Shown: positions 1,184-26,733, counted from the stretch's first letter. The stretch is 35,849 nucleotides of DNA from a virus (IMGVR_UViG_3300011584_000017:1-35849), one strand, 5' to 3'. The notes: generated from the letters alone by a model not told the origin. Translations and numbers: made by a program.

Positions 1184-1666
1184 ATGGAAGAACTTCACTT
1201 TGTTTACATCAATGCAAATGGTCGTATCGCTGTTCACTCTATACAGAGCATCAGTTATAGCGAAAATCATATACAGGGCATTTGTAAGAACACCGATCGA
1301 ATAAAAACCTTCCGAAAAGACTGCATTCTTAAACAGTACGATTCACCAGAACAAGCCATTCAGGAATGCGCGTCATTCCTCCCCGAAAGCTACTCACATC
1401 TCACTAAGCAGTCTGGTCCGAAAAAAAATACATTCGATGTATGTTTCACCGGATTTAAGAAAGCAGATAAAGAAAGATTGGTTGATAAGGCGAATGAACA
1501 AGGATTAACGGTAAGAACCTCTGTAACCCAAAGCCTTCAGATGCTCTGTTGCGGTTACAATGCAGGCCCATCAAAAGTATCGGCAGCCCGGATGAAAGGC
1601 ACAATCATCATAGATGAGCCTGGCTTTATACATTTTCTTGAAACGGGTGAGATCCCAGATGAATAA
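1184..1666 (+). CDS. Hypothetical protein with C-terminal BRCT-like domain (prophage cargo next to the attachment site)
   Basis: 160-aa ORF, AT-rich, RBS agagg 8 nt before ATG. The C-terminal ~75 aa (VCFTGF...GLTVRTSVTQSLQMLCCGYNAGPSKVSAARMKGTIIIDEPGFIHFL) follows the pattern of the BRCT domain of NAD-dependent DNA ligase; the N-terminal half is possibly WYL/SH3-like (weak). Confidence 0.6.
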   Translation: MEELHFVYINANGRIAVHSIQSISYSENHIQGICKNTDRIKTFRKDCILKQYDSPEQAIQECASFLPESYSHLTKQSGPKKNTFDVCFTGFKKADKERLVDKANEQGLTVRTSVTQSLQMLCCGYNAGPSKVSAARMKGTIIIDEPGFIHFLETGEIPDE

Positions 1667-1979: not shown

Positions 1980-3080
1980 TTATTCCATTTCAAGATCATC
2001 AATCTTCACTTCGAGTTCAATACTGGTTGTAAAACCGTTATCCGGGCTGACGGTATGTGTCAGAGTCGTAATGGTCCATTCCGCATCATCTATCGGCTGT
2101 TTAAAACCACTGACCTTCACAGGCATTTCCGTGTAGAGATCTGCCCGCCCTTCTGCCAGTTGTAGCGAGAATGACGCAACGCCACGTTGCAGGCGTTCCC
2201 ACTGCATTTTCGCCGCCCGTTCGGCGTTGCTCCGGTTGGCATAGGTGCGATTAAGTACCAGCACGTTTTCATCTGTACCCACCAGGTAATCGCCCTGCTT
2301 CGCTTCCGGCTCTTTCTTCTGCTTCTTAGTCCTGCGCTTACGCTTCACCGTGGTGCTTTCTTTCTTCGCGGGTTCGCGGGTATGCAACCAGCTGGCAATT
2401 ACGCCCGTGTAGGCTCCGCGATCTGCCAGGGTAAAGCGGTGACTGTCGCCGTCCTTACGTGTGATAGTGATAACCGGTAGTGGTTTACCGCTGGCGCTTT
2501 TACCCTGTCCCTGCCGGATGAATAACAGATTGCCATTTTTCACCGACGCAATAGCACCGTACTGGCGCGCCAGCCGCATCAGAAAACTGCCGTCACTCTC
2601 ATTGGTCTGGTCTATATGCTCCACAGGTTTATCCGACAGGTCTTTACCCAGTGCCATCTTCAGTTTGTGCCGCACAGCTATTTCCTTCACCACTTCCCCA
2701 ACGGTGGTCTTGTGCCACGATTTTTCACGGCGGATATTCAGGGTTTCACGAAAATCAGCACTTCGCGCCCGGATAGTCAGGCGGTCCGGTGCGCCAGTGT
2801 GTTCAATCTCGTCCACCGTGAATGCTCCTTTCGGGAAAAGCGACTGCCCCTTCCAGCCCAACGCCAGCGTAATGACCGCACCACGGCGCGGCAGCACGAT
2901 TTTTCCGTCGGCGTCGTCCAGCTCCAGATCAAGCTGGTCCGCTTCAAAGCCCCGATTGTCCGTCAGCGTCAGACTCATCAGGCGGTTATCCAGCACAGTG
3001 GTGATATCCTTACCCTCAATACTGATGCTGAATGCCGGAGTTTTGTTGCCTTTGTTAAGCAGTTCAGAGCTGAAATTCAC
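1980..3080 (-). CDS. D: Tail protein D (late gene D product)
   Basis: 366-aa ORF in the P2 gpD position after U; GTG start overlapping the U stop (GTGA). Confidence 0.85.
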   Translation of the reverse strand: MNFSSELLNKGNKTPAFSISIEGKDITTVLDNRLMSLTLTDNRGFEADQLDLELDDADGKIVLPRRGAVITLALGWKGQSLFPKGAFTVDEIEHTGAPDRLTIRARSADFRETLNIRREKSWHKTTVGEVVKEIAVRHKLKMALGKDLSDKPVEHIDQTNESDGSFLMRLARQYGAIASVKNGNLLFIRQGQGKSASGKPLPVITITRKDGDSHRFTLADRGAYTGVIASWLHTREPAKKESTTVKRKRRTKKQKKEPEAKQGDYLVGTDENVLVLNRTYANRSNAERAAKMQWERLQRGVASFSLQLAEGRADLYTEMPVKVSGFKQPIDDAEWTITTLTHTVSPDNGFTTSIELEVKIDDLEME

Positions 3081-3562
3081 GACAGCAGCCCTCCCACCGT
3101 TTTACTGATATCGCTTAAGGCAGACGTTGTCGTATCCTGCAAATTATTCAGCTGCGCACTGAGATCACCGAACATATCGGACAGGGATTCATCCACCCGT
3201 TTGAGCGACAGGGTGAACTCAATCCGGCGCGGCATACCATCGCGGAAAAACTCCGTTTTAGTCTGATTCAGTCCCTCAATCACATACATGCCGTAAATCG
3301 TGCCGCTGCCTTCAATCAGGGGCCATGCTTTCCCCTGTTCTGCCATCTGCTCCAGTGCCAGCAACGACAGCCTGCCGCCTGTTATTTCCGGCATAAGAAC
3401 ACCGGAAAGCGTCAGCATGTCGTTTTCCGGTCCCAGAAACTGCGTGGACGGACGTCGGTTTACCCGACTGTTTGCCGCATGTCGCCAGCTGCGTTGATAC
3501 TGCAGTTCCTGATACGGAACGGTGCGCAGCATAAACACGTACAATCCCAGCACCATCATCAT
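3077..3562 (-). CDS. U: Tail protein U
   Basis: 161-aa ORF, size and position of P2 gpU between T and D. Confidence 0.85.
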   Translation of the reverse strand: MMMVLGLYVFMLRTVPYQELQYQRSWRHAANSRVNRRPSTQFLGPENDMLTLSGVLMPEITGGRLSLLALEQMAEQGKAWPLIEGSGTIYGMYVIEGLNQTKTEFFRDGMPRRIEFTLSLKRVDESLSDMFGDLSAQLNNLQDTTTSALSDISKTVGGLLS

Positions 3563-6500
3563 GCGTCGTATCCCCCCTGATCGCTGTAGTTACTCCTGGC
3601 TTTTGCCTTCAGCCTGCGTTCACGTTCATCAAGCTGGCGTGCCACCTCCCGCGCAATATCCTGCGCACTTTGTCCTGGCTGCGTCTGAATGATGATCTGC
3701 GTCGGTGCCTCAATCCGTTGAACGAGCGGCACAGTGGCTGCGCGACTCACAATTGCTTCTCCACCTTTCGCGGGAAGTGCCAAAGGGTGCAACGGTGGAA
3801 GCTCTGCTGGCGCGGCAGCAACGCCCATCATTCCGGCAACAACGGCAGCCAGTGCAGCTGTATTTCTCCGGCTGGTCACATTTGCCGGGCCGTTAACAAT
3901 TTCCGGCCCGTTTTCACCGACGATGCCAAACTGCCCGCGCGGGATATCCCCGCCGCTGTCATACATCCCCGCAAAGCCATATCCCCATGATGGAAAACCA
4001 CCCGATGGCATCATCACTTTACCGTCTGCATTCACCGTCGCAGGTTGCTGACGCGTCACTCTTTCCGGCAGTTTCGCCTTTGCAGCCTCTTTACTGACAA
4101 TGCCGAGTTTCTCCAGCAACCAGGAAACGCCGGATTTCAGGGAGTCCAGCGGATGCATGACCATATTCAGCCCTTCCGCCAGTGCCTCCCCGAATCGCCG
4201 CCCCATTGCCGCTGCACTCTGCAGTTCGGCAGAGGTCGACTTAACGGGCGTCAGCAGATCAGTAAACCAGCCCCACAGCGCCTGTACTTTGTCGCCAATC
4301 CACTGGAACACTGGCTTAAGCGGTTCGAATGCTGCACTGACGGGACCTGCCGCCGCTTTGAATCCTTCCACCACGCCACCAAGAAATGCGGTGATGGGTT
4401 GCCAGTATTTCCAGACAACCAGCGCCACGCCCGCCAGTGCAGTAACCACAAGACCTATCGGACTGAGCAGAGCACCTAACAGACCAGATACGGCATACAG
4501 GGCAACGCGCAGCATCGCCAGTGGACCAGATGCCAGTATTCGCAGCACCGTGCCTGCGGAGGCCAGTCCACCGCGCAGTACCGCCAGAGGATTCATAAAC
4601 ATCACAGCAACAGCACGTAAACCGGATAATCCAGACCGCAAAAGTGCAACCGGCGCACCTGCTACAGTTTTCAGGACATTTCCCGTCAGTGATGCCGTGC
4701 GGCGCAAAGACGACAACGGCGCAGTAAGTAAACCTGCGGCGTTGCCCGATGAAGCAAGCCCGCGTCGCAGCAGTGCAAGTGGTGCGCCAGCCAACCAGGA
4801 CAACGCGCTGCTGGTTCGCGTTACTGCTGCCGTAACGGAAGGTAACGTTTTGATACCCAGCACAGAGAATCCCAGACGGATGACTGCCAGCGGCCCCAGC
4901 ACAGCAGCCAACACCACAGCCAGGGTGCCGAGGCCCACAGTAACAGCAGCCACAACCGCTGCTACTTTCATCAGTGTGCCCGTCAGTTCAGGGTTAGCTT
5001 CCACCCAGCGACGCAACGCCCCCGTGATGCTTTTCACCGTGTACAGAATATCCATCAGCGGCTGGCGCAGCGTTTCGCCCAGGCTGCTGAAGGTGTTCTG
5101 CGCTCCGGTTTTGACCAGCAACCACTGCGCAGAAAGTGAGTCCTTGTTAATGTCGGATTCTTTCTGCATCGAACCGAGCGCATCATTGCCCGCTGTCAGT
5201 TTTAGCTGGCGCTGCAGTTCCGGCAGGTTGTTTGCCAGTTTCGCCGCATCATCGCCAAACTCTTTACCAAACAACATGGTCATGGCAGACAGGCGCTTAT
5301 CCTGCGGCAGTGCATTCACCTTCTCCAGTACGCGCTGGATAGTTCCCATCGCATCCTTCGTCATCTGCTTTTCAATCACTTCAGGATTGAGTTTCAGCAG
5401 ATTCATTCCTTCAAAGAAACTCTTGCTTTGCATGGTCGCAATGGACAATTCACGCACCATCGCGTTGGCAGCACTGGCAGCGACCTCCGGCGCAGCACCC
5501 AGTGTCAGGAAGGTGGAACCCAGCGCCGCCGCTTTACGATAATCCAGACGATCAGCCACACCGCCCAGGCGTTGCATGACATCAATGATGTCTGCCCCTT
5601 TCGACATAGCGTTATCATCCAGATAGTTCAGCGCATCACCGAGCTGTTCAATATTGCGGGTTGGTATTTTGTAGAGCTGGGCGATTTTCCCCAGACTTTC
5701 TGACAGTTCATCCGCTGGCAGCTCAAAGGCTGTTGCCGCCTTTGCTGCCGTACTGGCGAAGGCCAGCAGGTCACGTTTCTGGTCCTCCCAGCTGTCGTCA
5801 GGGTTTGCCACATTCATGCGCGCACCACCTTCAACCAGTGCGGCGAAGTCCACAGCACCGTTTTCCATTGGCAGCTGTTCACTGGCAGCTTTGATGGCAT
5901 CCTGCATTTCGTAAAAACGCGCAGTGCGGTTGCCATTATCGTCACGCAGACCATTGACCTGCTTTGCCACACCTTTCATGGCATCTTCCATGCTGGTATA
6001 GCTTTTTACCGCCGCCATCACTGGCGCGCCCATTGCCAGCCCTGCAGCCGTGGTGGTGGCTCCGGCTCCTGCGATGCGATCGCGCACTTCAAGCCGTCTT
6101 GAGTATTGTTCTCTGGCAGCGTTCATCCGTGCCTGTTGTTCACCCAGACGTTTAAGTGCTTTTTGCTGGCCCTCCAGTGCCTGACGAGTTTCTTCGGCAT
6201 TTTTCTTAAGTTCTCGCTGGGCACTACTGAGTTGTCTGGTATCAATCCCTGATTCTTTAAGTGCCTGACGTTGTCTCTGGACCGCCCCCAACAAGCCGTT
6301 ATAGGTCTGCTGAAGTTCCTGTACTCGTGTTTTGGCCTGACTGAATAACTTTGCCTGCGCGGCGGTTGGCCTGTTAGTGGCAGCAAATTGTGTGGCGAGT
6401 TTTGCCGCCTCTTCGCGGGCTGCGTTCAGGTTGTTGGCTGTTATGGCTAGTTGCGAGCGCGTCTTACGAAATTCATCAATTCTGCCAGCCTGCTTATTCA

Positions 6501-7119: not shown

Positions 7120-7635
7120 TCAGAGGCCGAGGGCGTTGCGGTGCGCTTCCATCAGGTCCACACCGTCCACAATTTCCACCATGTTGATAAGGTCCACTTC
7201 ATAGAGCACCTCACCATTTATAGTCAGCTTCGCGTAGCTGTTGGTACTGGTCACTTTGGTGGTGTTGCTTTCGCCCGTCTTCCACTCGCCGGAATCCACT
7301 TCTTTGTGACGTCCACGCACCACAAGCTCCACGGCCTGCACTTCCCCGGTATCGTCACGCTGGATAGAGCCGGTAAAGCGCAACTGGATACCATCCACCG
7401 TGGCTTTGCCCATCTGCTTAAACAGCAGCAGTTCAGTACCACCAATGGAAAATTCCGTATCCAGTGCGCCGTCATCCAGCCCCAGATCCACATCCACTGC
7501 ACCCGGCATTCCGCCGCCGCGATACTTCTCATATTTGCGGGTAAATTTCGGCAGCGTCAGCGACTCAACGATCCCCTGCCAGTTGTTCCCGTCATTAAAC
7601 AGGTTCAGGTGTTTTAATTTGCGTGGTAAAGCCAT
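7120..7635 (-). CDS. FII: Tail tube protein FII
   Basis: 171-aa ORF, size and position of P2 gpFII. Confidence 0.9.
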   Translation of the reverse strand: MALPRKLKHLNLFNDGNNWQGIVESLTLPKFTRKYEKYRGGGMPGAVDVDLGLDDGALDTEFSIGGTELLLFKQMGKATVDGIQLRFTGSIQRDDTGEVQAVELVVRGRHKEVDSGEWKTGESNTTKVTSTNSYAKLTINGEVLYEVDLINMVEIVDGVDLMEAHRNALGL

Positions 7636-7644
7636 GTTGTCCCC

Positions 7645-8817
7645 TTACGCGCTGACCTGGCTGGAGAAATTCACCAGGTACTGATCGGTGATGCGCTGAC
7701 GCAGCATCAGGTTTTCAAGTGGCGGCACTGGCGTGTAGTCGTAGTCGATGGTGAGTTTTCCGGCTTTCAGCGTGTCTTTGTCGTTCACCGACTCATCCAG
7801 CCAGCAATCACCACCAATGAGATAGCCCTGACTGACCAGGCTGCGCATTTTGGCGCGGATACCCTCGATAATGTCGCGGGCCAGCGACGGATTCAGCGGT
7901 TTATCCACCGCCCACATGTGCGCTTCTGCCATCGTGTCCGTCAGCACCTGCGCCGTGCGGGTGTAGTTTTCGAAGGCAAAGAGCGGGTCATCACTCAGGC
8001 AGCGGGAACCCCAGAAGCGGAAACCGTCTTTACGCACAAGCGTGGTGACGTCGTTCTGGTTCAGCAGACCTGCATCGGTTGCCGGGTCCTGCAGATCCCA
8101 GAACACATCTGCAGAAATTCCGGTGACACCGTTCACGCCCACGTTGGACAGGCTTTTGTGCCATCCGGTCTGCTCGTCAATTTTGGCGCGCAGACCAAGC
8201 GCACGGGCGGTGGCATATGCCGTTGCTTCGGCATTCAGCACCGTGTCCCAGCCAGTAAAGTCAGGCCAGATCAGCATCCCTTCGCGCTGGCTGAAGTTTT
8301 CGCGGTAAGTGATCGCCTCCTGCACTGTCTTGCAGCCATACGCTGACAGGTAAGCAAATCCACGCAGGCTTTGCGCCACGCTCAGCAACTCAGTAGCTAC
8401 CGCCTTGGTGTCGTGGCCTGGCACGCCGAGAATGCGCGGTTTAACGCCGAGCTGTGACTGGGCAGATAACAGGGCTTTCATACCTGTTTTTTTACCTTCA
8501 GCAGTCACTGCGCCGATGATATTGGTCGTGGTTTCGTCTTCCGTTTCACCCTGCGGCACACGCACAACAATGGTCACGGGTTTTGCCTGGTCAGCGATGG
8601 CATCCAGCGAACGGGCCAGAGTACCTGACTCACCCGCTTTACCGCTGGCAGTCAGCACATCAGTGATCAGCACGGGTTTATTAAGAGGAAACATTTTTGC
8701 ATCGGCATCATCGCCCGTGCAGACCATACCCACGATGGCGGTGCTCACCGTGGTAATAGATCGGGTGCCTTCGTTGACTTCAACAACGCGCACCCCGTGG
8801 TGGTAATCCTGAGCCAT
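7645..8817 (-). CDS. FI: Contractile tail sheath protein FI
   Basis: 390-aa ORF, size and position of P2 gpFI; first gene of the F operon. Confidence 0.9.
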
Positions 8818-8893
8818 AGTGGCGAACCTCCTGATTGGATTAGGCTTCGCCCTATGTTGAAGTGATTGTGCCTGACAAACAGCTAAGCGCAGT

Positions 8894-8911
8894 TGTGTCG
8901 TTATTCACACA
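8894..8911 (-). promoter_or_regulatory. Candidate Ogr-dependent late promoter element (TGT-N12-ACA) upstream of FI
   Basis: tgt-gtcgttattcac-aca, centred about 85 bp upstream of the FI start codon; matches the P2 late-promoter activator site consensus. Confidence 0.45.
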
Positions 8912-8959
8912 AAATAACGGTATTTGTCTGCTTGTAGGGATAATCAACATAATGCTGAT

Positions 8960-9526
8960 TCAGGGGGATTCATTGATCTTATTTGCCGGAAATTTTCTAT
9001 AAATGGTAGAAACGCCTACATCAAAAATCAGTGCAATACGCTGTATTGATTCTCCGGCCTCGAGTAAACGCCCAATCTGTGCCCACTGTTCGGTGGTCAA
9101 CTTAGGACGGCGTCCACCTACTCTGCCTTTGGCACGAGCTGCAGCCAGCCCTGCCCTGGTACGTTCAACTATCAGTTCGCGTTCCATTTCAGCCAGGGCA
9201 CCCATGACATGAAAAAAGAAACGGCCCATTGGGGTACTGGTATCAATACTGTCAGTCAGGCTTCTGAAATTCACACCACGCTGGCGCAACTCTTCTATCA
9301 GCGTAACAAGATGCCGCATACTGCGCCCCAACCTGTCCAGCTTCCAGACAACCAGCGTGTCTCCTGCCGATAGTGTCCTGAGTAGTTTTTTCAGCCCCGG
9401 TCTGTCGGACTTAGTGCCACTGATTTTGTCCTCAAAAATCCGCTCACATCCCGCGCAGTTCAGTGCATTACGTTGCAAATCGGTGTTCTGGTCATTTGTT
9501 GACACGCGTACATAGCCAATAAGCAT
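8960..9526 (-). CDS. Site-specific DNA invertase, serine recombinase (Gin/Pin/Cin/Hin family)
   Basis: MLIGYVRVSTNDQNTDLQRNAL...VVWKLDRLGRSM...FFFHVMGALAEMERELI...: near-identical in pattern to Mu Gin; the ORF track start at 9532 adds MI before the likely Gin-like start. Confidence 0.92.
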   Translation of the reverse strand: MLIGYVRVSTNDQNTDLQRNALNCAGCERIFEDKISGTKSDRPGLKKLLRTLSAGDTLVVWKLDRLGRSMRHLVTLIEELRQRGVNFRSLTDSIDTSTPMGRFFFHVMGALAEMERELIVERTRAGLAAARAKGRVGGRRPKLTTEQWAQIGRLLEAGESIQRIALIFDVGVSTIYRKFPANKINESP

Positions 9527-9532
9527 GATCAT

Positions 9533-9608
9533 CCCCCTGAATAAAAACCGGAGATGATGCCAGTTAGCTGTTACCTCTGCATTTTCTTAAACGTTGGTTT
9601 GGGAGAAG
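9533..9608. repeat. Left inverted repeat of the invertible segment (contains the 15-bp core ttggtttgggagaag)
   Basis: Perfect 76-bp reverse-complement match to 11490-11565. Confidence 0.85.
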
Positions 9609-10093
9609 GCTCTGCATTACCTGTTGGTGTCCCTGTTCCGTGGCCTTCAGCCACTCCGCCAACAGGCTGGCTGAAATGCAATGGTGCAGCTTTTTCTGCT
9701 GAAGAATACCCGGAACTGGCAAAAGTTTACCCGACAAATAAATTGCCTGATTTACGTGGTGAGTTTATTCGTGGCTGGGATGACGGGCGGGGGATTGATA
9801 CAGGTCGCTCTATTTTAAGTATTCAGGGATATGCAACGGAGGATCATGCTCATGGATTACCGTCAAGATCCACGATTGTGACTGATGCAACTATTAATTT
9901 CTATTTTGATGAAAGCTGGGTAAATAGTGGCACTGACATTATCAAAAGAGGAAACACAAACGATGCTGGATTACCAGCACCGGATTATGGAACCTTTAAA
10001 ACATATAAACAATCAGTGGCTGGTTTAGGTGCCGCAGCCTCAGAAACGCGTCCGCGTAATATTGCATTTAACTATATCGTGAGGGCAGCCTGA
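9554..10093 (+). CDS. Alternative (silent in this orientation) tail-fibre C-terminal variable segment Sv'
   Basis: ORF shares GLGEGSALPVGVPVPWPSA with the end of the H constant region, then diverges; tail-fibre-like C-terminus; lacks the H constant part in this orientation. Confidence 0.7.
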   Translation: MMPVSCYLCIFLNVGLGEGSALPVGVPVPWPSATPPTGWLKCNGAAFSAEEYPELAKVYPTNKLPDLRGEFIRGWDDGRGIDTGRSILSIQGYATEDHAHGLPSRSTIVTDATINFYFDESWVNSGTDIIKRGNTNDAGLPAPDYGTFKTYKQSVAGLGAAASETRPRNIAFNYIVRAA

Positions 10094-10695
10094 TGCATAA
10101 AGCAATATTAAATAGTGAGCTCATTGCAACAAAGGCAGGGGATGTTACCGTTTATAACTATGATGGTGAAACACGGGAATATATTTCCACTTCAAATGAA
10201 TATCTTGCCGTTGGTGTCGGCATTCCGGCATGTTCCTGTTTAGATGCCCCTGGCACACATAAGGCTGGTTATGCAATCTGCCGTTCTGCAGATTTTAACT
10301 CATGGGAATATGTGCCAGACCATCGCGGTGAAACGGTCTATAGCACCGAAACAGGAGAATCAAAAGAAATCACCGCTCCGGGTGATTACCCTGAAAATAC
10401 AACCACTATCGCCCCATTAACGCCATATGATAAATGGGATGGTGAGAAATGGGTGACGGATACCGAGGCACAGCATAGCGCCGCAGTAGATGCAGCAGAA
10501 GCACAGCGCCAGTCGCTGATTGATACTGCAATGGCTTCCATCAGTCTGATTCAACTGAAATTGCAGGCCGGACGTAAACTGACGCAGGCAGAAACAACCC
10601 GGCTTAACGCTGTGCTGGATTACATTGACGCGGTGACGGCAACAGATACCAGCACCGCGCCGGATGTCATCTGGCCTGAACTGCCGGAGGCGTAG
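10093..10695 (+). CDS. Tail fibre assembly protein (U'-like, partner of Sv')
   Basis: 200-aa ORF with the typical Tfa C-terminus (...LDYIDAVTATDTSTAPDVIWPELPEA). Confidence 0.8.
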   Translation: MHKAILNSELIATKAGDVTVYNYDGETREYISTSNEYLAVGVGIPACSCLDAPGTHKAGYAICRSADFNSWEYVPDHRGETVYSTETGESKEITAPGDYPENTTTIAPLTPYDKWDGEKWVTDTEAQHSAAVDAAEAQRQSLIDTAMASISLIQLKLQAGRKLTQAETTRLNAVLDYIDAVTATDTSTAPDVIWPELPEA

Positions 10696-11119
10696 GCCAT
10701 TCAATATCTGGTGCACTGGAGGTATCAACCAGCTCCAGTGCATCCAGATAATCCAGCCACAAATTATATTGCGCCAGTTCCTCACCTTTCAGACGACCAA
10801 TAGCGGCTTTACCGGGCCATTGCTTACTGTTCATGTATTCGTTGGCCTGGTTAATTAGTAGCTGTCTTTCTGATTCAGTAATTTCAATAAGCTCTTCATG
10901 CGTGGGTGGAGGAGTATCTGCCCACGCAGGCAGCCCATCATCTCCGGCAATACGGATTTTTCCTTGTGGCGGTTCAGCCATAAACTCACTGATAATATTT
11001 TGATTTACTTCCTTAGCGTCTGATAAATCCCATCCCTCTGATTTATATTTATCAATCATATCCACAGGGAAAAAAGCATTATGCCTTGCGCTATAAACAT
11101 ATTCGTTCATATAAATCAC
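10667..11119 (-). CDS. Tail fibre assembly protein (U-like, partner of the expressed Sv)
   Basis: 150-aa ORF with Tfa-like C-terminus (...LDYLDALELVDTSSAPDIEWPTPP); convergent with its paralogue. Confidence 0.8.
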   Translation of the reverse strand: MIYMNEYVYSARHNAFFPVDMIDKYKSEGWDLSDAKEVNQNIISEFMAEPPQGKIRIAGDDGLPAWADTPPPTHEELIEITESERQLLINQANEYMNSKQWPGKAAIGRLKGEELAQYNLWLDYLDALELVDTSSAPDIEWPTPPAVQAR

Positions 11120-11130
11120 CCTGAATAAAA

Positions 11131-11544
11131 TTACTCACCAACAGCCCACCAACTGTAATTCATCGATACCGTGTCGCTGGTTGATGACGTTCTGTAAGCA
11201 GAATTAAAGCCGGTTAACGTTGGGCCTTCTGCAGTCATCACGAACCCTCGCCCAGCGCCTAAAGGCGCACCGCCATCACCAGAATGAGTAAGCATGGCGC
11301 AGTCCGCTTTTTTGGGGAAAGGGATGCTGAATGTAATTCTCATTGTTTGCGTCGATAATGTCGGCGTAACCGCACCACGACCATATTGCAGGATTTTCCC
11401 GTTGGGTAATTTCATCCATCCATCACCACTGGCAAAAGAGGCCATGTCCGGTATCTGATTTTCCCCTGTCCCCACATCCCGTTTTGCCGCTTCTCCCAAA
11501 CCAACGTTTAAGAAAATGCAGAGGTAACAGCTAACTGGCATCAT
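11131..11544 (-). CDS. Tail-fibre C-terminal variable segment Sv (the one joined to H in the assembled orientation)
   Basis: Variable region begins right after the 15-bp core (GLGE-AAKRDVGTGENQ...); the N-terminal MMPVSCYLCIFLNV of the ORF call is repeat-derived and probably not translated as such. Confidence 0.7.
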   Translation of the reverse strand: MMPVSCYLCIFLNVGLGEAAKRDVGTGENQIPDMASFASGDGWMKLPNGKILQYGRGAVTPTLSTQTMRITFSIPFPKKADCAMLTHSGDGGAPLGAGRGFVMTAEGPTLTGFNSAYRTSSTSDTVSMNYSWWAVGE

Positions 11545-11565
11545 CTCCGGTTTTTATTCAGGGGG
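11490..11565. repeat. Right inverted repeat of the invertible segment
   Basis: Perfect reverse complement of 9533-9608; abuts the N gap. Confidence 0.85.
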
Positions 11566-12683
11566 NNNNNNNNNNTGGCTGAAGGCCACGGAACAGGGAC
11601 ACCAACAGGTAATGCAGAGCCTTCTCCCAAACCAAGGTATGTGAGAAGACCAGCTACATCCTTTCCACTCAAATTGGTAAGCGTATTGTCCAGCGGTTGT
11701 TTACCTGCCAGCGCATTAAGCATTGTCGTGGCAAAGTTCGGATCATTCCCCAGTGCCGCCGCCAGTTCGTTCAGTGTATCCAGTGCAGCAGGTGCAGAAC
11801 CCACCATTCCTGCAATCGCCGATTTCACAAAAGCCGTAGTGGCAATCTGTGTATTGTTGACCGACTGCGCCGCCGTGGGGGCTGTTGGCGTTCCGGTGAG
11901 TGCCGGACTCGACAACGGTGCTTTTAGTGCCAGCGCATTGTTAATGGTGGTACTGAAATTCGGATCATTGTTAATGGCTGCGGCTATTTCTTTCAGCGTG
12001 TCCAGCGTGGCTGGCGCACCATTAATAAGGGCCGTCAGTGCCGCCTGTACAAACGCAGTGGTCGCAACCTGCGTGGTATTATTCCCCGCCGCTGGCGTTG
12101 GCGCTTTGGGGGTTCCGGTAAATGTCGGGCTGGCTTTTGGCGCGTACTGTGAATGCGGGTCCGGTGCGGCAAGATGTTTTGCCATCTGATCATCCGCGTA
12201 CACCTTCAGCTCCAGTGCCTTGTCATCCACATACTTGCGGGTTGCCAGCACTACAGCAGGGTCGATTTTCAGGGTGATATTGTCCGTGCTGCTGGTAATC
12301 AGCACCATGCGCACGGTCTGAGTGCGCCCGCTACCTTCAGCCAGTTGCGGCTTATAGCTTTCCGGGCAGTTGCCCACGGCAATCAATGCCCCGGACTCAT
12401 CAAACAAGCCCACTTCACGTATCCACCAACCGCCCTCGTTTTCAGGGATCACCTGTTCGGCAATAATCTGGCTGCTGTTCTGCGGGTCGATATAAAGCAT
12501 ATTCAGCGCAGCCCGGCGTTTCTCATTTACCAGTGCCGTCTGCTTTGCGTCCGGCGTTGGCAATACTCCACCGCCATCGCCCACCGCCATATGGGTAATT
12601 TTTAGCGGCACACCGAGCGCGGCGGCGCTGGCAAGTTTCGCCGCGCCAATATCCGTCAGCAGGGTATAAAATTTTGTGCTCAT
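11541..12683 (-). CDS. H: Tail fibre protein H (constant N-terminal part; C-terminus interrupted by the gap)
   Basis: 380-aa ORF with Ala/Thr-rich repeats (TAFV..A, NDPNF motifs) typical of P2 gpH; its 3' end runs into the inverted repeat and the N gap. Confidence 0.8.
   Translation of the reverse strand: MSTKFYTLLTDIGAAKLASAAALGVPLKITHMAVGDGGGVLPTPDAKQTALVNEKRRAALNMLYIDPQNSSQIIAEQVIPENEGGWWIREVGLFDESGALIAVGNCPESYKPQLAEGSGRTQTVRMVLITSSTDNITLKIDPAVVLATRKYVDDKALELKVYADDQMAKHLAAPDPHSQYAPKASPTFTGTPKAPTPAAGNNTTQVATTAFVQAALTALINGAPATLDTLKEIAAAINNDPNFSTTINNALALKAPLSSPALTGTPTAPTAAQSVNNTQIATTAFVKSAIAGMVGSAPAALDTLNELAAALGNDPNFATTMLNALAGKQPLDNTLTNLSGKDVAGLLTYLGLGEGSALPVGVPVPWPSAXXXXPLNKNRR
11566..11575. 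other. Assembly gap (10 N) inside the inversion crossover region
   Basis: Run of N; flanking sequence is a mosaic of both segment orientations. Confidence 0.95.
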
Positions 12684-13285
12684 GGATTCACTCTCATTGT
12701 GTCAATAACATGGACCGCCCCGCCTTCATGCGCGGTGCCACCGGAAATAATCGTTTCGTTGATATACGGATAGATCGTGATTTCTTCGCCAAGATAGCTG
12801 GCGGCTCCCACCCAATGCGGGCCGCTGGTCTGCAGATTGATGGACATGCCGATCATGTGGCGGCTACATGGTTTGGCATCGCTTATCAGTCGCTCAAGTT
12901 CCAGATAGGTATCTTCAGTGATGCCCTGGTCCTGCACGCCGATATCCAGGCGAAACGTGCCCGGTGTTTCTCCGGTCTGCCACCACTCAATAATGCGGAT
13001 CAGGAATCCGAACGGCTCCACCACCCGCCGCACGGCACTGGTGGTCCCTTTATGCTGATGAATATAAAAAGCATCCTTCACCACCTGGCGCTTGACGCTT
13101 TCTGTCCAGCCCTCGTCCCAGCGATCCACAGAGAACGCCCAGGCGAGATAAGGCAGGAAACTGACCGGACAGGTTGCCGGATTCCACAAGTCACGAAGCG
13201 GCACCTGCAGATCAGAAATCCCGCTGCAGGTTTGCGCCAGTCGGCGCTCCAGTGGTGTTGAACCCGGTGGCAGCAGACTATTCAT
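12680..13285 (-). CDS. I: Baseplate assembly protein I
   Basis: 201-aa ORF (MNSLLPPGSTPLERRLAQ...) in the P2 gpI position. Confidence 0.85.
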   Translation of the reverse strand: MNSLLPPGSTPLERRLAQTCSGISDLQVPLRDLWNPATCPVSFLPYLAWAFSVDRWDEGWTESVKRQVVKDAFYIHQHKGTTSAVRRVVEPFGFLIRIIEWWQTGETPGTFRLDIGVQDQGITEDTYLELERLISDAKPCSRHMIGMSINLQTSGPHWVGAASYLGEEITIYPYINETIISGGTAHEGGAVHVIDTMRVNP

Positions 13286-14186
13286 CCGTTCCTCCGTTGG
13301 TTACGCTCCACTGCGTACATGATGCCGCCTGTGTTTTGTTCAGGACCACATCCGCCAGAGGAGAAGCCAGCTCCACACGCTGCACCCCCTCAACATGCAG
13401 GGCGGCAAAGATGGCGCTACGGCGAATATCCCGACCAAGACGCGTCTGACTGGCGATGTACTTCTGCAGGCTGGCTTTTGCCGCTGCCATTACCGGCTCT
13501 GCTTCCGGTCCAGGATAGAGAAAAATGGTGGCTTCCACGCGATACGGGATGATTTCTGCGCTGCGAACCGTAAGACGGTCAGCCACCGGGCGGACGTTCT
13601 CACTGTTCAGAGCTTTTTCCACCACGTCCAGCAGGTCTTTTTCTGCAGTTCCATCGCCTTCGCGGCTAAGGACAGTCAGCACCACCTCTGCAGGTGCCGG
13701 GCTGGTTGCACTGGCATCCGCCACCCGACCGTCGGCGCTTCGGGCATGAAATTCATAAGCTGCAGTTGGCCCCGCAACAGAAAGCCCTTCAAAGGCTGCA
13801 GGCACACGCAGGCGCAACGCTTCATCGCTTTCCATCACAGCTGCAACGGGCGGCACAGCATCATTATCAGCAGGCGTCACCGTCAGGCGTGTCACGTTGT
13901 AGTTGGCAGCGAGCTGGTCAAGATCGCCGCCCATCGCGTAAGCCACCATCACCGCCTGCGCGGCTTCGTTAATGCGCTGGCGCAGAAGCAACTCACGGTA
14001 AGCGTTCTCCTGCAACAATTTAGTGGCGGGTTCAGATTCCAGTTCCAGCGTGCGGATCACTGCTTCCTGCTCATCTTTCGGATGAAGCGCCACAAATTCT
14101 GCCTTGCGTTCGGCAAGCAGCGTCTCAAAGTCCGGCACATCCACAATCTGCGGTGCAGGCAACTGCGAAAGGTCAATCACTGCCAT
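13278..14186 (-). CDS. J: Baseplate assembly protein J
   Basis: Start moved to the internal ATG at 14186 (MAVIDLSQLPAPQIV...), giving 302 aa like P2 gpJ and a short overlap with W. Confidence 0.85.
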   Translation of the reverse strand: MAVIDLSQLPAPQIVDVPDFETLLAERKAEFVALHPKDEQEAVIRTLELESEPATKLLQENAYRELLLRQRINEAAQAVMVAYAMGGDLDQLAANYNVTRLTVTPADNDAVPPVAAVMESDEALRLRVPAAFEGLSVAGPTAAYEFHARSADGRVADASATSPAPAEVVLTVLSREGDGTAEKDLLDVVEKALNSENVRPVADRLTVRSAEIIPYRVEATIFLYPGPEAEPVMAAAKASLQKYIASQTRLGRDIRRSAIFAALHVEGVQRVELASPLADVVLNKTQAASCTQWSVTNGGTDE

Positions 14187-14532
14187 TCTCTGCTCCTGTT
14201 GATACGGAAAGGGACACAGGCACACCGTTATTCCGCCGCCCGGTCAGCTCCACCACCATTGAACCGTCAAAATTGCTGTTGATGGTGATGGAATCCAGCG
14301 TCAACCGTGGCTCCCAGCGACTCAGCGCCACATACACTGCCGACATGACCTGCAGGCGTAATGCCGGATTTTGTGGCTGATCTATCAGTGCCGACAGCAG
14401 GGAACCATATTCCCGGCGGGCAATACGGCTACCCTGCGGTGTCAGCAGAATGTCCCGCACCGACTGGCGCAGATGATCAATATCAGTAATGACTTTGCCG
14501 CTGGTATTGTTCATCCCGCTATAAAGCGTCAT
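14173..14532 (-). CDS. W: Baseplate wedge protein W
   Basis: 119-aa ORF in the gpW position. Confidence 0.85.
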   Translation of the reverse strand: MTLYSGMNNTSGKVITDIDHLRQSVRDILLTPQGSRIARREYGSLLSALIDQPQNPALRLQVMSAVYVALSRWEPRLTLDSITINSNFDGSMVVELTGRRNNGVPVSLSVSTGAENGSD

Positions 14533-23978: not shown

Positions 23979-25721
23979 TTAGAATGCGGATTTGATTTTT
24001 TTCTCAAATGCCTCATATACAGGCTGGTTCATTTGGGCCGTTGCAGTAATAAGCTGTGAAAAATTTGATATACAATCTTTAACTTTTGTAGGACTTTTCA
24101 ACCCTCCTTCAACCAGTGCAGGCAGCAACTGATTACTTAAAGCCAGACACACATCTACAATTGGCTCCCAAATACTTTCAGCCTGAGAAGGAGAGACCGC
24201 ACTTCCAAACGAAACTCTAAATAAATTAGGAACGGGACGGCCCAAAAAGTTTTCCAAACATTCGGCAATAGCCGAGCACAATAAAGGTATTGAACCACGA
24301 TGCCTGAGATATCCCAATTGAGCGCCATCATTTTTTGAAAGAGTATCTTTCTTTGCCAAAGCTATTTTCTTGTTCTCAATACACCGCATGAGAGAATACG
24401 CACAAACAATATGTGAAGCTTTTGTACTGTCATTAAAAATCTTAGAATAATGAGAGTCATTAGTCCAAATTGCAGATCGCTGATTATAAGCTACCGTCGG
24501 CTCTCCATGGAAACTCATCAAAGCTTGACCAACAGTATAAGAAGGCAGTAGATTAGTTTTTCGACGAATGACACTTTCAGCACCTCCTCGTCTTCCTCCA
24601 TCATATTCAGCATCAGGAATAGAAGCAAATTCATTTTTAAGTCGTTTTTGAATTTTGTCTGTGCTTCTGAAATCAGATGCTTCAACTTTATTCTGACTGT
24701 TATTATACTGAATTATATTCTGAATTAGATCAGCATCCGCATCTTTGACTTTTATAAATCTAGCTTGGACTTTAACTGATTCTGGAGGTAATCGTGGCAG
24801 CGTTCCTAAAGCACCTGTTGTCTGTGCTCCATTAACTATTGACATCCCTCTGATTTTAAGATTCTTTGATGCTTCATTGAATTTATATTCATGAACCAAA
24901 ACAGTTACGCCATTATTGTATGCCCAAAATTCTGATGCTGAATTTTCCGCACTGTTACGGATACCATTATTGATATTTGAATCAGATGACCTTGATCCAA
25001 GGTAGTCTCTAACATTTGCTGAAAATATTTTTAATTTATGCTTTTTGTACGCTCTAGCTAAATCTCTTCCCTGAATGGTAGTACAGAATGCATTCCAATT
25101 ATCTCCTTTTATTTCGTAGCCACCATCACTGACTTTAATATTAAAAATATCATCAACCAGTATTGGTGATAGTGATTCACTATACCATTCCGTCAACTTT
25201 TCAGTGCCTACTTCCATTGCATGCACTTGTATTTTAGCATCTTCAAAATCATGTTTTAAAATAGTTGTTGCTGTCTGCTGAACCGTAATTAGCTCTTGAG
25301 CCACATTTGTTGAAGATGGTAAGTTATGAACATACCAAACGTACAGAGTTTTAATTTTCCCTTGTTTGATTGATGTCCGTATCTGTTGAGCAGAAGATTT
25401 TATTCTATCGGGTACATCATGCAAATCTCTTTGCAGAAGCCATGCTAAAGCAATATTAAGATCACTCGCTTTATTTGCTGGAGCTTCCTGTCTATCTTTG
25501 CTTGAGAAATAGCATTGAGCAAGTACAGCAAATTCTTCTTCTTCATTAATATACACAAGGTCACATTTCTTATCGTTATGTCCATCGGTAATGGACTCTG
25601 CTGCGACACTATCAATGTCATCAATTCTAAAATGTAATGCTAACGCAAACAAAGCCAGTCCATTATCACCATACGATTTCAAATCTTCTCTTGCAGAATA
25701 GGCTTGGTTCCAGGTACTCAT
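23979..25721 (-). CDS. AIPR-like protein (candidate abortive-infection / anti-phage defence protein); prophage cargo
   Basis: 580 aa from ATG 25721, which has a strong RBS (AAGGAG 5 nt upstream); visibly AT-rich relative to the phage core; no Walker A; motifs TDGHNDKKCDLVYIN and IVNGAQTTG that I associate from memory with the AIPR family; sits between Q and cos. Confidence 0.6.
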   Translation of the reverse strand: MSTWNQAYSAREDLKSYGDNGLALFALALHFRIDDIDSVAAESITDGHNDKKCDLVYINEEEEFAVLAQCYFSSKDRQEAPANKASDLNIALAWLLQRDLHDVPDRIKSSAQQIRTSIKQGKIKTLYVWYVHNLPSSTNVAQELITVQQTATTILKHDFEDAKIQVHAMEVGTEKLTEWYSESLSPILVDDIFNIKVSDGGYEIKGDNWNAFCTTIQGRDLARAYKKHKLKIFSANVRDYLGSRSSDSNINNGIRNSAENSASEFWAYNNGVTVLVHEYKFNEASKNLKIRGMSIVNGAQTTGALGTLPRLPPESVKVQARFIKVKDADADLIQNIIQYNNSQNKVEASDFRSTDKIQKRLKNEFASIPDAEYDGGRRGGAESVIRRKTNLLPSYTVGQALMSFHGEPTVAYNQRSAIWTNDSHYSKIFNDSTKASHIVCAYSLMRCIENKKIALAKKDTLSKNDGAQLGYLRHRGSIPLLCSAIAECLENFLGRPVPNLFRVSFGSAVSPSQAESIWEPIVDVCLALSNQLLPALVEGGLKSPTKVKDCISNFSQLITATAQMNQPVYEAFEKKIKSAF

Positions 25722-25804
25722 TATCACTCCTTAGTAATAAAGTTTTAGCGAAGGTTATCTCTAAGAAGGTACATTTTCAATTCCATTTATCCCTCCAGCG
25801 CGCG

Positions 25805-25996: not shown

Positions 25997-26674
25997 CTAG
26001 AACGTGACAGCCTTGTCAAAGCCAGAAATAATTGTATAAGAAATAGACGAGTTATCAGCCTTGTTCACTTTGAACTTGGCACCTTTGTAAGCGATAACGT
26101 CACTTCCCTTAGAATCTACAGAAAAATCTGTTGTAAATGCTGCACGAGCCATATCGTTTGCAAATTCACGATAGGTGAACTTCATTACACCGCCTGCATT
26201 TCCATTGTATTCGATAGTCTTAACCAATGAGTTACTAACTCGACACAGCCCATCAGGAACACGTTTGATAGAAATTTCTGATGCAGTATAAGAAGTACCA
26301 TTTGGCGGTGATATCTCATTTTTTGCAGCATCGTAACTAACATAATCAACATAGTTACCGATTTGCCCATAGAGATTTTTTAACGCAACAGCTTGAGGGT
26401 TATGATAATTGCGGTAAATTCCATTCCCCTCACTGCAATATGTACCAGCAGCGATAGAAGACAATGCACCATTAGCCGCACCAAGTTCTAGTACGTCCGT
26501 TTTAAATCCAGTAGCAGATGTGATAATGGGATCGCCCATGTAGGCGGTAGCACTTTGCCCAATAGCAGGCTTCACCACTTCAATAGCAGTGATATTTCGG
26601 TTAGAAGCATGTGGCACGCAACCAGTTAGGATTACAGCAAGAGATATTGGTAACGCTACATTATTAATTTTCAT
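25997..26674 (-). CDS. Putative lipoprotein (candidate superinfection-exclusion / surface protein); prophage cargo
   Basis: 225 aa from ATG 26674; signal peptide with lipobox MKINNVALPISLAVILTGC; Gly/Ser/Thr/Tyr/Asn-rich mature part ending in a C-terminal Phe; AT-rich; flanked by its own terminators. Confidence 0.7.
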   Translation of the reverse strand: MKINNVALPISLAVILTGCVPHASNRNITAIEVVKPAIGQSATAYMGDPIITSATGFKTDVLELGAANGALSSIAAGTYCSEGNGIYRNYHNPQAVALKNLYGQIGNYVDYVSYDAAKNEISPPNGTSYTASEISIKRVPDGLCRVSNSLVKTIEYNGNAGGVMKFTYREFANDMARAAFTTDFSVDSKGSDVIAYKGAKFKVNKADNSSISYTIISGFDKAVTF

Positions 26675-26695
26675 TTTTAGCCTATTATTCTTTTC

Positions 26696-26733
26696 TTGAC
26701 AAAAAACAAGGCGATATCTGATTGACATCGCCT
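26696..26733 (-). terminator. Terminator of the SOS-regulated tum/DinI-like operon
   Basis: Hairpin aggcgat...atcgcct followed by a U-run (UGUUUUUUG) on the minus strand. Confidence 0.45.

What the first reader, a model, noticed from the sequence alone, without database searches (positions are those of the whole stretch)
8960..11635. Gin-like invertase with an invertible tail-fibre host-range cassette
A serine invertase nearly identical in pattern to Mu Gin sits next to a segment bounded by perfect inverted repeats. The segment carries two alternative tail-fibre C-terminal regions (Sv, Sv'), each with its own assembly chaperone, in opposite orientations. Inversion would swap which C-terminus is fused to the constant H part and so switch host range. 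P2 itself lacks this module. The sequence around the 15-bp core (ttcttaaacgttggtttgggagaag) resembles the imperfectly palindromic gix/hix recombination sites.
Basis: partly seen in the sequence, partly recalled or inferred. Interest (0 to 1): 0.45.

Follow-up and report, generated by a model that had tools for sequence, protein, structure and literature searches.

The report
Invertible tail-fibre switch in P2-like prophage
This is an ordinary, already described phage device: a small enzyme flips a 1.9-kb DNA segment so that the phage tail fibre gets one of two alternative tips. The draft assembly itself carries junctions from both orientations.

Summary
Window 8960-9526(-) encodes a 188-aa serine DNA invertase of the Gin/Cin/Pin/Hin family. 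It is closest to PinE of the E. coli cryptic prophage e14 (85% identity), not to Mu Gin (75%).

It sits beside a ~1.9-kb segment bounded by two inverted 26-bp gix/pix-type sites. These share an exact 15-bp core, TTGGTTTGGGAGAAG, identical to the e14 P-segment repeat that has been shown experimentally to invert.

The segment carries two convergent cassettes, each a fibre tip plus a chaperone:
- Sv (Collar domain) with U (TfaE-like)
- Sv' (Gp53-like_C) with U'

Both tips fuse in frame to the constant part of the P2-type fibre gene H, giving proteins of 515 and 473 aa. Reference P2 lacks the module.

New here: the 76-nt "perfect" inverted repeat is an assembly artefact. Positions 11505-11620 hold a copy of the invertase-side spacer, 10 N, and a copy of the first 45 nt of Sv. 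Together they are the two junctions of the opposite orientation, flanking a scaffold gap. The window therefore holds three of the four possible junctions, which indicates that both orientations were present in the sequenced DNA. Sister E. coli isolates carry the same prophage in either orientation.

This is a known kind of system, known in P2-like prophages, and of low interest.

The parts
8960..9526 (-). DNA invertase gene (188 aa; an upstream in-frame ATG at 9532 would give 190 aa). Gin/Cin/Pin/Hin family.
   Evidence: Pfam Resolvase 2.9e-53 + HTH_7 6.4e-16. Gin structure 3UJ3 E=1.4e-91. Identity: 84.8% to e14 PinE, 76.9% to P1 Cin, 75.1% to Mu Gin. Ser9, K46/K47/R50 and Q150/R153/L154 are present. 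The RefSeq relative is annotated over the same 567 nt.
9437..9508 (-). Stretch inside the invertase gene (coding nt 19-90) homologous to the annotated recombinational enhancer of P1 cin. It contains two Fis-like 15-mers, GTGTCAACAAATGAC and GCGCGGGATGTGAGC. This is a putative enhancer.
   Evidence: The P1 record annotates the Cin enhancer at cin nt 19-90. Identity over this stretch: 56/72 to P1, 63/72 to e14, 52/72 to Mu. Fis-like 15-mers occur at homologous positions in Mu. A synonymous-site test was not significant, so this part is inferred only.
9533..9581 (.). Spacer between the invertase start and the invertase-proximal site. It holds a weak terminator-like hairpin (9546-9565, - strand) and the ATG (9554/9557, + strand) of a short leader that reads into whichever cassette is in the unexpressed position.
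   Evidence: Sequence, hairpin scan, leader MMPVSCYLCIFLNV with the same layout as e14 stfE.
9582..9607 (.). Invertase-proximal 26-bp recombination site, TTTTCTTAAACG TT GGTTTGGGAGAA. The central dinucleotide (the crossover point in this family) is at 9594-9595.
   Evidence: It differs by 1 nt from the e14 pin-proximal site TTTTCATAAACG TT GGTTTGGGAGAA. The core equals the e14 P-segment repeat TTGGTTTGGGAGAAGG (PMC12529663).
9609..10093 (+). Sv: alternative fibre C-terminus 1 (Collar domain), here in the unexpressed position next to the invertase.
   Evidence: Pfam Collar 4.7e-15. 93% identical to the e14 StfE variable part. In frame with Sc through the core, giving a 515-aa fusion.
10093..10695 (+). 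U: tail-fibre assembly chaperone for Sv (TfaE-like).
   Evidence: Pfam Caudo_TAP 3.5e-33. 97.5% identical to e14 TfaE. RefSeq names it tfaE in relatives.
10667..11119 (-). U': tail-fibre assembly chaperone for Sv'. Its 3' end overlaps the 3' end of U by 29 nt (convergent genes).
   Evidence: Pfam Caudo_TAP 6.4e-31. 54% identical to e14 TfaP.
11131..11489 (-). Sv': alternative fibre C-terminus 2 (Gp53-like C-terminal domain). In the true orientation of this assembly's left junction it is the tip fused to Sc.
   Evidence: Pfam Gp53-like_C 1e-12. The 473-aa in-frame fusion is identical in layout to the intact ORF in E. coli GPEC1366.
11490..11504 (.). Core copy (reverse complement) at the Sv' end of the segment. 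This is the inner half-site plus central dinucleotide of the true Sc-proximal site.
   Evidence: In GPEC1366, window 11504 is followed directly by window 11636, with the 15-bp core shared between the two alignments.
11505..11620 (.). Assembly artefact of 116 nt: a 61-nt exact copy of the invertase-side spacer (11505-11565), 10 N (11566-11575), and a 45-nt exact copy of the start of Sv (11576-11620). These are the two junctions of the opposite orientation (spacer::Sv' and Sc::Sv) on either side of a scaffold gap.
   Evidence: This is the only N run in the window. Exact shared lengths are 76, 60 and 15 nt. The 116 nt are absent from the complete genome of GPEC1366. Both stubs are colinear with the flipped state in GPEC1040 and in phage 500465-1.
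11622..11647 (.). Sc-proximal 26-bp site as it appears in the window. Its reverse complement reads TTCTCACATACC TT GGTTTGGGAGAA.
   Evidence: The two halves match each other at 10 of 12 positions.
11636..12683 (-). Sc: constant N-terminal part of the P2-type tail-fibre gene H.
   Evidence: Pfam Phage_tail_fib N-terminal 8.1e-65. Followed upstream by the gpI and gpJ homologues. Residues 181-340 are 80% identical to the P1 S constant part.

Best explanation
The window is a P2-family (Peduoviridae, 186/Fels-2/Wadgaonvirus-like) prophage of E. coli. It carries a Pin/Gin-type site-specific inversion switch in the place where P2 has fun(Z).

Proposed mechanism:
1. The 188-aa serine invertase binds as dimers to two inverted 26-bp sites, one at the Sc/variable boundary of fibre gene H and one 68 bp upstream of its own start codon.
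2. By analogy with Hin, Gin and Cin, it is probably activated by host Fis bound to an enhancer in the first ~90 nt of its own gene.
3. It cleaves at the central TT/AA dinucleotide, rotates one half of the complex by 180 degrees and religates. This flips the ~1.9-kb segment.
4. Late transcription entering from gene H then reads either Sc::Sv' followed by U', or Sc::Sv followed by U. Progeny virions therefore carry one of two receptor-binding tips, each folded by its own chaperone.

Shown here: the anatomy, the in-frame fusions, family membership of the enzyme and the sites, and the existence of both orientations (in this assembly and in sister genomes).

Inferred: Fis/enhancer dependence, the exact cleavage position, and the host-range consequence.
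For: Enzyme:
- Resolvase + HTH_7 domains.
- Identity of 75-85% to Gin, Cin and PinE.
- Ser9 is present, and so are the helix-B basic residues and the DBD Q/R/L residues that PMC3798978 reports as unique to Fis/enhancer-dependent invertases.

Sites:
- 12+2+12 layout, identical inner half and identical central dinucleotide in inverted orientation.
- Three core copies against 0.24 expected by chance.
- The core is identical to the e14 P-segment repeat, which PinE and PinQ invert experimentally.

Cassettes: Collar or Gp53-like_C tips, each with a Caudo_TAP chaperone, convergent, and both in frame with Sc.

Inversion:
- The window holds spacer::Sv (left end), and spacer::Sv' and Sc::Sv (either side of the 10-N gap). 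That is three of four junctions, and they cannot all lie on one molecule that has a single copy of each part.
- GPEC1366 is colinear with the window minus 116 nt. GPEC1040 carries the same protein accessions with the segment flipped, and the breakpoints fall inside 9591-9608.
- Phage 500465-1 (99.7% identical in the flanks) is also flipped.
- Among 5426 complete E. coli genomes, the Sc::Sv junction is found at >=80% coverage in 452 and the Sc::Sv' junction in 389.

Context:
- P2-type gene order: sheath, tube, tape measure, gpD, gpI, gpJ, GPA, CI/CII and integrase.
- P2 itself lacks the module.

Literature:
- Inversions were measured in P2-like prophages of EPEC (PMC4272514).
- Invertases are noted in the Z/fun hotspot of P2-like phages (bioRxiv 10.1101/2024.10.15.618418).
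Against: - No reads are available, so heterogeneity in the sequenced sample is deduced only from the scaffold structure. Two prophage copies in opposite states within one genome would give the same picture.
- The enhancer could not be demonstrated independently of coding conservation: the synonymous-site test gave p=0.04-0.8 across pairs.
- No sigma-70-like promoter for the invertase was found in the spacer by the simple scan.
- The 45-nt Sv stub is shorter than the 61 nt expected if both contig ends were plain k=77 graph edges, so the assembler details are not fully explained.
- The receptors of the two tips, and therefore the host-range effect, are unknown.
Confidence: 0.9

Rival explanations
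1. The chimeric scaffold does not reflect switching in the sequenced culture. Instead, two near-identical prophage copies (or a mixed sample) are fixed in opposite orientations, and the assembler collapsed them.
For: E. coli genomes often hold several related loci: a median of 2 and up to 12 places per genome match this 3.8-kb region. A collapsed repeat would yield the same three junctions.
Against: The 35.8-kb window has a single gap and no other sign of collapse or breakage. The stubs are 100% identical to the window's own spacer and Sv. Coexisting orientations within clonal cultures are documented for P2-like prophages and for e14.
Confidence: 0.08
2. The module is a frozen relic. The invertase or the sites are no longer active, and the orientation differences among genomes are old events inherited vertically.
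For: Activity was not measured. No clear promoter was found. The enhancer is not independently supported.
Against: All catalytic and regulatory hallmark residues are intact. The sites are identical in core to experimentally active e14 sites. Sister chicken isolates sharing identical protein accessions across the locus differ only by the inversion. Junctions of both orientations occur in one assembly.
Confidence: 0.04
3. The three core copies are real, and the locus is a three-site shufflon-like system, as described for one P2-like prophage of EPEC.
For: There are three copies of the core in the window. Multi-site versions exist in nature (PMC4272514).
Against: The middle copy is followed by an exact 61-nt copy of the invertase-upstream spacer that stops at a 10-N run. 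The next 45 nt are an exact copy of Sv. Complete genomes 99% identical to the window lack these 116 nt. There is no third cassette.
Confidence: 0.02

Closest known systems
Pin / P-segment inversion system of the E. coli cryptic prophage e14 (pinE, stfP-tfaP / tfaE-stfE)
   Same: - The invertase is 84.8% identical to PinE.
- The gene order is the same: constant fibre part, site, two convergent tip+chaperone cassettes, site, ~60-bp spacer, then an invertase reading away from the segment.
- The crossover core TTGGTTTGGGAGAAG(G) is identical.
- The invertase-proximal 26-bp site differs by 1 nt.
- One cassette is nearly the same: Sv is 93% identical to StfE and U is 97.5% identical to TfaE.
- A short leader ORF starts in the spacer in both.
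   Different: - It sits in an apparently complete P2-family prophage, fused to a P2-type gene H, and not in a decayed prophage.
- The second cassette differs: Sv' is a Gp53-like_C tip with no e14 counterpart, and U' is only 54% identical to TfaP.
Gin / G-segment of phage Mu
   Same: - Same family of enzyme (75.1% identity) and same position and direction of the invertase relative to the segment.
- 26-bp sites with a 12+2+12 layout.
- Two S/U-type cassettes switching host range.
   Different: - Mu gix sites are identical to each other over 34 bp and have a central TC, whereas here only 15 bp are shared and the centre is TT.
- 17 of 26 site positions match gix.
- No detectable similarity of Sv, U, U' or Sv' to Mu S or U by tblastn at E<=1e-3.
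- The segment is 1.9 kb here, against 3 kb in Mu.
Cin / C-segment of phage P1
   Same: - Enzyme 76.9% identical.
- The P1 record annotates the enhancer at cin nt 19-90, and the homologous stretch here is 78% identical.
- Sc residues 181-340 are 80% identical to the P1 S constant part.
   Different: In P1, cin lies on the other side and reads towards the segment, with cixL overlapping its 3' end. The cassettes are unrelated at the sequence level.
Invertase-carrying P2-like phages and prophages (Escherichia phages 500465-1 and pro483, Cartapus; EPEC P2-like prophages)
   Same: Same module in the same place, between the fibre-assembly gene and the sheath gene, annotated 'DNA invertase' in the public records. 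Identity to this window is up to 99.7% in the flanks. Inversion was measured in EPEC P2-like prophages. The feature is noted as common in the Z/fun hotspot.
   Different: Only the cassette content varies. For example, 500465-1 carries a different tip next to the invertase.

Membership tests
Fis/enhancer-dependent DNA invertases (Gin/Cin/Pin/Hin) | Small serine recombinase with an N-terminal resolvase catalytic domain, a nucleophilic Ser at position 9/10, and a C-terminal HTH DNA-binding domain | tested here: met
   Pfam Resolvase 2.9e-53 and HTH_7 6.4e-16. Aligns 1-184 with Gin 3UJ3/4M6F, with Ser9 aligned. Y5, R7, S9, D64, R65 and R68 are visible in the sequence.
Fis/enhancer-dependent DNA invertases (Gin/Cin/Pin/Hin) | Residues reported as uniquely conserved in this subclass: basic helix-B residues (Hin K47, K/R48, K/R51) and DBD helix-1 residues (Hin Q151, R154, L155) | tested here: met
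   The window protein has K46, K47, R50 and Q150, R153, L154 (Gin numbering, which is Hin minus 1). See the alignment and the criterion from PMC3798978.
Fis/enhancer-dependent DNA invertases (Gin/Cin/Pin/Hin) | Two 26-bp recombination sites in inverted orientation, each an imperfect palindrome around a 2-bp crossover, with the same central dinucleotide in both | tested here: met
   The sites are TTTTCTTAAACG TT GGTTTGGGAGAA and TTCTCACATACC TT GGTTTGGGAGAA. The count exceeds chance. They are near-identical to e14 pix and alignable with Mu gix and P1 cix.
Fis/enhancer-dependent DNA invertases (Gin/Cin/Pin/Hin) | Recombinational enhancer with two Fis sites in cis, located in the 5' part of the invertase gene | tested here: inconclusive
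   The stretch homologous to the annotated P1 enhancer (cin nt 19-90) is present at 9437-9508, with two G...C 15-mers at positions homologous to those in Mu. The DNA conservation cannot be separated from protein conservation. Fis binding cannot be tested with these tools.
Invertible tail-fibre host-range segments (Mu G, P1 C, e14 P) | Constant 5' part of the fibre gene outside the segment; two alternative 3' parts inside in opposite orientation, each followed by its own assembly chaperone; both fusions in frame | tested here: met
   Domains. In-frame fusions of 515 and 473 aa. Intact fusion ORFs in relatives.
Invertible tail-fibre host-range segments (Mu G, P1 C, e14 P) | The segment is actually found in both orientations | tested here: met
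   Three of four junctions lie in one scaffold. GPEC1366 versus GPEC1040 and phage 500465-1 differ by this inversion. Junction census: 452 versus 389 genomes. This is in-silico evidence only.
Invertible tail-fibre host-range segments (Mu G, P1 C, e14 P) | The two orientations give virions with different host ranges | not testable with these tools
   This needs orientation-locked lysogens and plating on different hosts.
P2-family phages (Peduoviridae) | P2-type late gene order (V W J I H G / FI FII E T U D) and early region (repressor, GPA replication protein, integrase) | tested here: met
   ORF order and Pfam hits: Phage_GPD, Phage_GPA, CI repressor, CII (CP76) and integrase. 80-82% of 23 kb matches Peduoviridae records at 90-95% identity. 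Phage 500465-1 is classified as Wadgaonvirus, Peduoviridae.

The most novel reading that the evidence does not exclude
The cassette in the unexpressed position may not be silent. A start codon in the invertase-proximal spacer (ATG 9554/9557, leader MMPVSCYLCIFLNV) is in frame with whichever tip lies next to the invertase. It gives a free 179-aa (Sv) or 137-aa (Sv') receptor-binding fragment. The same layout in e14 was recently reported to yield a chimeric protein, StfE2, that blocks phage T2 adsorption after inversion (PMC12529663). In the lysogen the switch might therefore also act as an invertase-controlled defence or superinfection-exclusion device.
Probability: 0.08. Interest if true: 0.45.

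Novelty: already known. Interest (0 to 1): 0.15.

Why it matters
Biologically it adds little. Gin/Cin/Pin-type fibre switches have been textbook material since the 1980s. Their presence in P2-like prophages has been published and is annotated in public records that are up to 99.7% identical (in the flanks of the module) to this window.

Two practical points are useful:
1. Scaffold gaps with short mirrored stubs at an invertase site are a recognisable signature of an actively switching segment. They can be read as free evidence of phase variation in draft assemblies.
2. Such stubs create spurious long 'perfect' inverted repeats and truncated fibre ORFs, here an H frame running into N and a false stop. 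Annotation pipelines and sequence-only readers can misinterpret these.

Tried and rejected
- Synonymous-site conservation across the presumed enhancer (codons 7-30 against codons 31-178) in the window, Mu, P1 and e14 invertase genes. Not significant in 5 of 6 pairs, so there is no independent support for the enhancer.
- Simple sigma-70 scan of 8800-11760. No promoter-like site in the spacer, and the totals were not above shuffles. The terminator-like hairpin at 9546-9565 is weak.
- blastp and tblastn of Sv, U, U' and Sv' against the Mu S/U, P1 S/U and P2 H/G regions. No matches at E<=1e-3, apart from Sc against the P1 S constant part. The cassettes are therefore not the Mu or P2 ones.
- Reading the three core copies as a real three-site system. 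Rejected, because complete relatives lack the 116 nt and the stubs end at the N run.
- Explaining both stubs as plain k=77 graph edges. The 76-nt stub (61+15) fits k-1, but the 45-nt Sv stub does not (61 nt expected). The assembler inference is therefore tentative.
- Conservation of the spacer leader peptide between the window and e14. There is 1 synonymous change against 5 conservative non-synonymous changes, so there is no evidence of selection on the peptide.
- Johnson's review of serine invertases (PMC4384473) is not held. Criteria were taken from PMC3798978 instead.

Full report
**1. What is in the sequence**

On the minus strand, 8960-9532 is a 190-aa ORF. The second ATG (9526) lies 7 nt after a GGGGGA motif and matches the RefSeq annotation of a 99%-identical relative, so the protein is probably 188 aa. 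It has the Resolvase catalytic domain (2.9e-53) and the HTH_7 domain (6.4e-16). Its best solved-structure match is the Mu Gin invertase (3UJ3, E=1.4e-91, aligned 1-184).

Identity to known invertases:
- e14 PinE: 84.8%
- P1 Cin: 76.9%
- Mu Gin: 75.1%

Ser9 is present. So are the residues that PMC3798978 describes as uniquely conserved in Fis/enhancer-dependent invertases: Hin K47, K/R48, K/R51 and Q151, R154, L155. In the window these are K46, K47, R50 and Q150, R153, L154.

To the right of the gene lies a 61-nt spacer, then the exact core TTGGTTTGGGAGAAG (9594-9608). After the core come:
- Sv, 9609-10093 (+), Collar domain
- U, 10093-10695 (+), Caudo_TAP
- U', 10667-11119 (-), Caudo_TAP
- Sv', 11131-11489 (-), Gp53-like_C
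- the core again, in reverse complement, at 11490-11504

The constant part of a P2-type fibre gene H (Phage_tail_fib, 8.1e-65) runs on the minus strand from 12683 down to a third core copy at 11621-11635. The 14-mer TTCTCCCAAACCAA occurs three times in the window, against 0.24 expected by chance.

**2. The sites**

Read from outside to inside, the two sites are:
- TTTTCTTAAACG TT GGTTTGGGAGAA (invertase side, 9582-9607)
- TTCTCACATACC TT GGTTTGGGAGAA (Sc side, reverse complement of 11622-11647)

This is the 12+2+12 imperfect-palindrome layout of gix, cix, pix and hix. The inner half and the central dinucleotide are identical in both sites, and the outer halves differ. Mu gix reads TTATCCAAAACC TC GGTTTACAGGAA. 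The e14 pin-proximal site is TTTTCATAAACG TT GGTTTGGGAGAA, one nucleotide different from the window. The core equals the e14 P-segment repeat 5'-TTGGTTTGGGAGAAGG-3', at which PinE and PinQ invert DNA experimentally (PMC12529663).

**3. Both fusions are in frame**

Joining Sc plus core to Sv gives a 515-aa protein. Joining it to Sv' gives a 473-aa protein. Each has a single terminal stop. The Sc::Sv' ORF is intact in E. coli GPEC1366. Phage 500465-1 has an annotated 502-aa tail protein in which the segment is flipped so that its H reads Sc::Sv.

**4. The long perfect repeat is an assembly artefact, and an informative one**

The repeat finder reports a 76-nt, 100% inverted repeat (9533-9608 / 11490-11565) and a 72-nt, 93% one (9582-9653 / 11576-11647). 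The window has a single N run, 11566-11575.
- Left of the N run, the sequence is Sv'::core followed by an exact copy of the 61-nt invertase-side spacer.
- Right of the N run, it is an exact copy of the first 45 nt of Sv, followed by core::Sc.

The window therefore contains spacer::Sv (left end), spacer::Sv' and Sc::Sv. That is three of the four possible junctions, and they cannot coexist on one molecule that has single copies of the spacer and of Sv. The fourth junction, Sc::Sv', is the one that must accompany the left end, and it is missing.

The complete genome of GPEC1366 is colinear with the window at 98.8-99.9% identity, except that window 11504 joins directly to 11636 through one shared core. 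It lacks the 116 nt 11505-11620. The complete genome of GPEC1040 carries the same protein accessions for the invertase, both chaperones, the sheath, gpI and gpJ. In that genome the segment is flipped. It is colinear with window 9591-11565 on one strand and with 7410-9608 and 11576-14500 on the other, so both stubs reproduce the flipped state exactly.

My inference is that the scaffold was broken at the recombination site because reads of both orientations were present. Junction sequences longer than the 15-bp shared core cannot be invented by a k-mer assembler, so such molecules must have existed. The 76-nt stub equals k-1 for k=77. The 45-nt stub does not fit that simple picture, so I hold the assembler detail loosely. 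A second prophage copy in the opposite state cannot be excluded without reads.

**5. Both states are common in nature**

In 5426 complete E. coli genomes, a 175-nt Sc::Sv junction query is covered at >=80% in 452 genomes, and the Sc::Sv' query in 389. Some part of the 3.8-kb region matches in 3053 genomes.

**6. Context**

The neighbours are:
- sheath (7645-8817), tube and tape measure on one side
- gpI and gpJ on the other side
- further away, gpD, capsid and terminase genes, GPA, a Dam-type methylase, 186-type CI and CII, and an integrase

Between 80% and 82% of the other 23 kb matches Peduoviridae records at 90-95% identity. Reference P2 has H, G, a terminator, fun(Z) and then FI, with no invertase.

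**7. Mosaic origin of the cassettes**

By tblastn:
- Sv is 93% identical to e14 StfE.
- U is 97.5% identical to e14 TfaE.
- U' is 54% identical to TfaP.
- Sv' has no counterpart in e14, Mu, P1 or P2.
- Sc residues 181-340 are 80% identical to the P1 S constant part.
- None of the cassettes resembles Mu S or U.

Phage 500465-1 carries yet another tip next to the invertase.

**8. Enhancer**

The P1 record annotates the Cin enhancer at cin nt 19-90. The homologous window stretch (9437-9508) is identical at 56/72 positions to P1, 63/72 to e14 and 52/72 to Mu. It contains two G...C 15-mers at positions homologous to those in Mu. Synonymous-site conservation there is not significantly higher than in the rest of the gene. 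The enhancer is therefore inferred by homology only.

**9. Mechanism**

Shown:
- the anatomy and family membership of the enzyme and the sites
- the in-frame alternative fusions
- the existence of both orientations

Inferred from the established behaviour of Hin, Gin and Cin:
- dimers bound at the two sites synapse on a Fis-bound enhancer
- cleavage occurs at the central dinucleotide through Ser9, followed by a 180-degree subunit rotation and religation
- late transcription from the H operon expresses only the cassette joined to Sc
- the two tips recognise different receptors

**10. Comparison and novelty**

The closest known system is e14 Pin / P segment. It shares the core, has near-identical sites, an invertase at 85% identity, and one shared cassette. 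The same module in P2-like phages is already in public records, annotated as DNA invertase (phages 500465-1, pro483, Cartapus). Inversion has been measured in P2-like prophages of EPEC (PMC4272514), and the invertase has been noted as frequent in the P2 Z/fun hotspot. I rate it already known, with interest 0.15.

**11. Residual speculative reading**

An ATG in the spacer (9554/9557) opens a leader, MMPVSCYLCIFLNV, that is in frame with whichever cassette is next to the invertase. e14 stfE has the same layout. A recent paper attributes T2 adsorption blocking to the e14 chimera made by inversion. The leader shows no sign of selection as a peptide, and its ribosome-binding context is poor. I give this reading about 8%.

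Noticed in passing
window 9554-10093 (+) and 11131-11544 (-): An ORF starting in the invertase-proximal spacer (leader MMPVSCYLCIFLNV) reads through the recombination site into whichever tip is in the unexpressed position. e14 'stfE' has the same layout (leader MPFACYFFIFINV). A 2025 paper reports that the e14 chimera formed this way blocks T2 adsorption.
   Followed up: partly
window 11636-12683 (-), residues 181-340 of Sc: The constant part of this P2-type fibre gene is 80% identical at the protein level to the constant part of P1 S, in the region of the P1 repeated elements b1/b2. This shows fibre mosaicism that reaches outside the invertible segment.
   Followed up: partly
window 10667-10695: The two convergent chaperone genes U and U' overlap by 29 nt at their 3' ends. 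The same overlap is annotated in the RefSeq relatives.
   Followed up: no
window 23979-25727 (-) and 25997-26728 (-): A 582-aa AIPR / AbiU-like abortive-infection protein (Pfam AIPR 1.8e-34; PADLOC AbiU 1.9e-34) lies next to a 243-aa ORF with no Pfam or PADLOC match. Both sit beside the portal gene, which is the position of the P2 old/tin defence hotspot.
   Followed up: partly
window 9546-9565 (-) and its artefactual copy at 11533-11552 (+): A weak terminator-like hairpin followed by TTTTTATT lies between the invertible segment and the invertase start. It might insulate the invertase gene from late fibre-operon read-through. Hairpin counts in the region are only modestly above shuffles.
   Followed up: no
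window 34791-35849 (+) and 1184-1666 (+): A 352-aa ORF downstream of the integrase runs to the window end and has no Pfam or PADLOC match. A 160-aa ORF near the left end has only a weak match to a candidate defence family (PDC-S48, 1.9e-07).
   Followed up: partly
L001 (E. coli GPEC1366) 3732-5153 and L005 (GPEC1040) 3034-4580: RefSeq annotation of the fibre gene is inconsistent in close relatives. The intact 473-aa Sc::Sv' ORF is split into a 'partial, missing C-terminus' pseudogene plus a separate gp53-like protein. The Sc::Sv gene in the sister strain is flagged as frameshifted.
   Followed up: partly
window 29786-30703 (-): A D12-class N6-adenine DNA methyltransferase (Pfam 3.4e-76) lies next to the GPA replication gene. 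This is a common accessory of 186/Fels-2-like phages.
   Followed up: no
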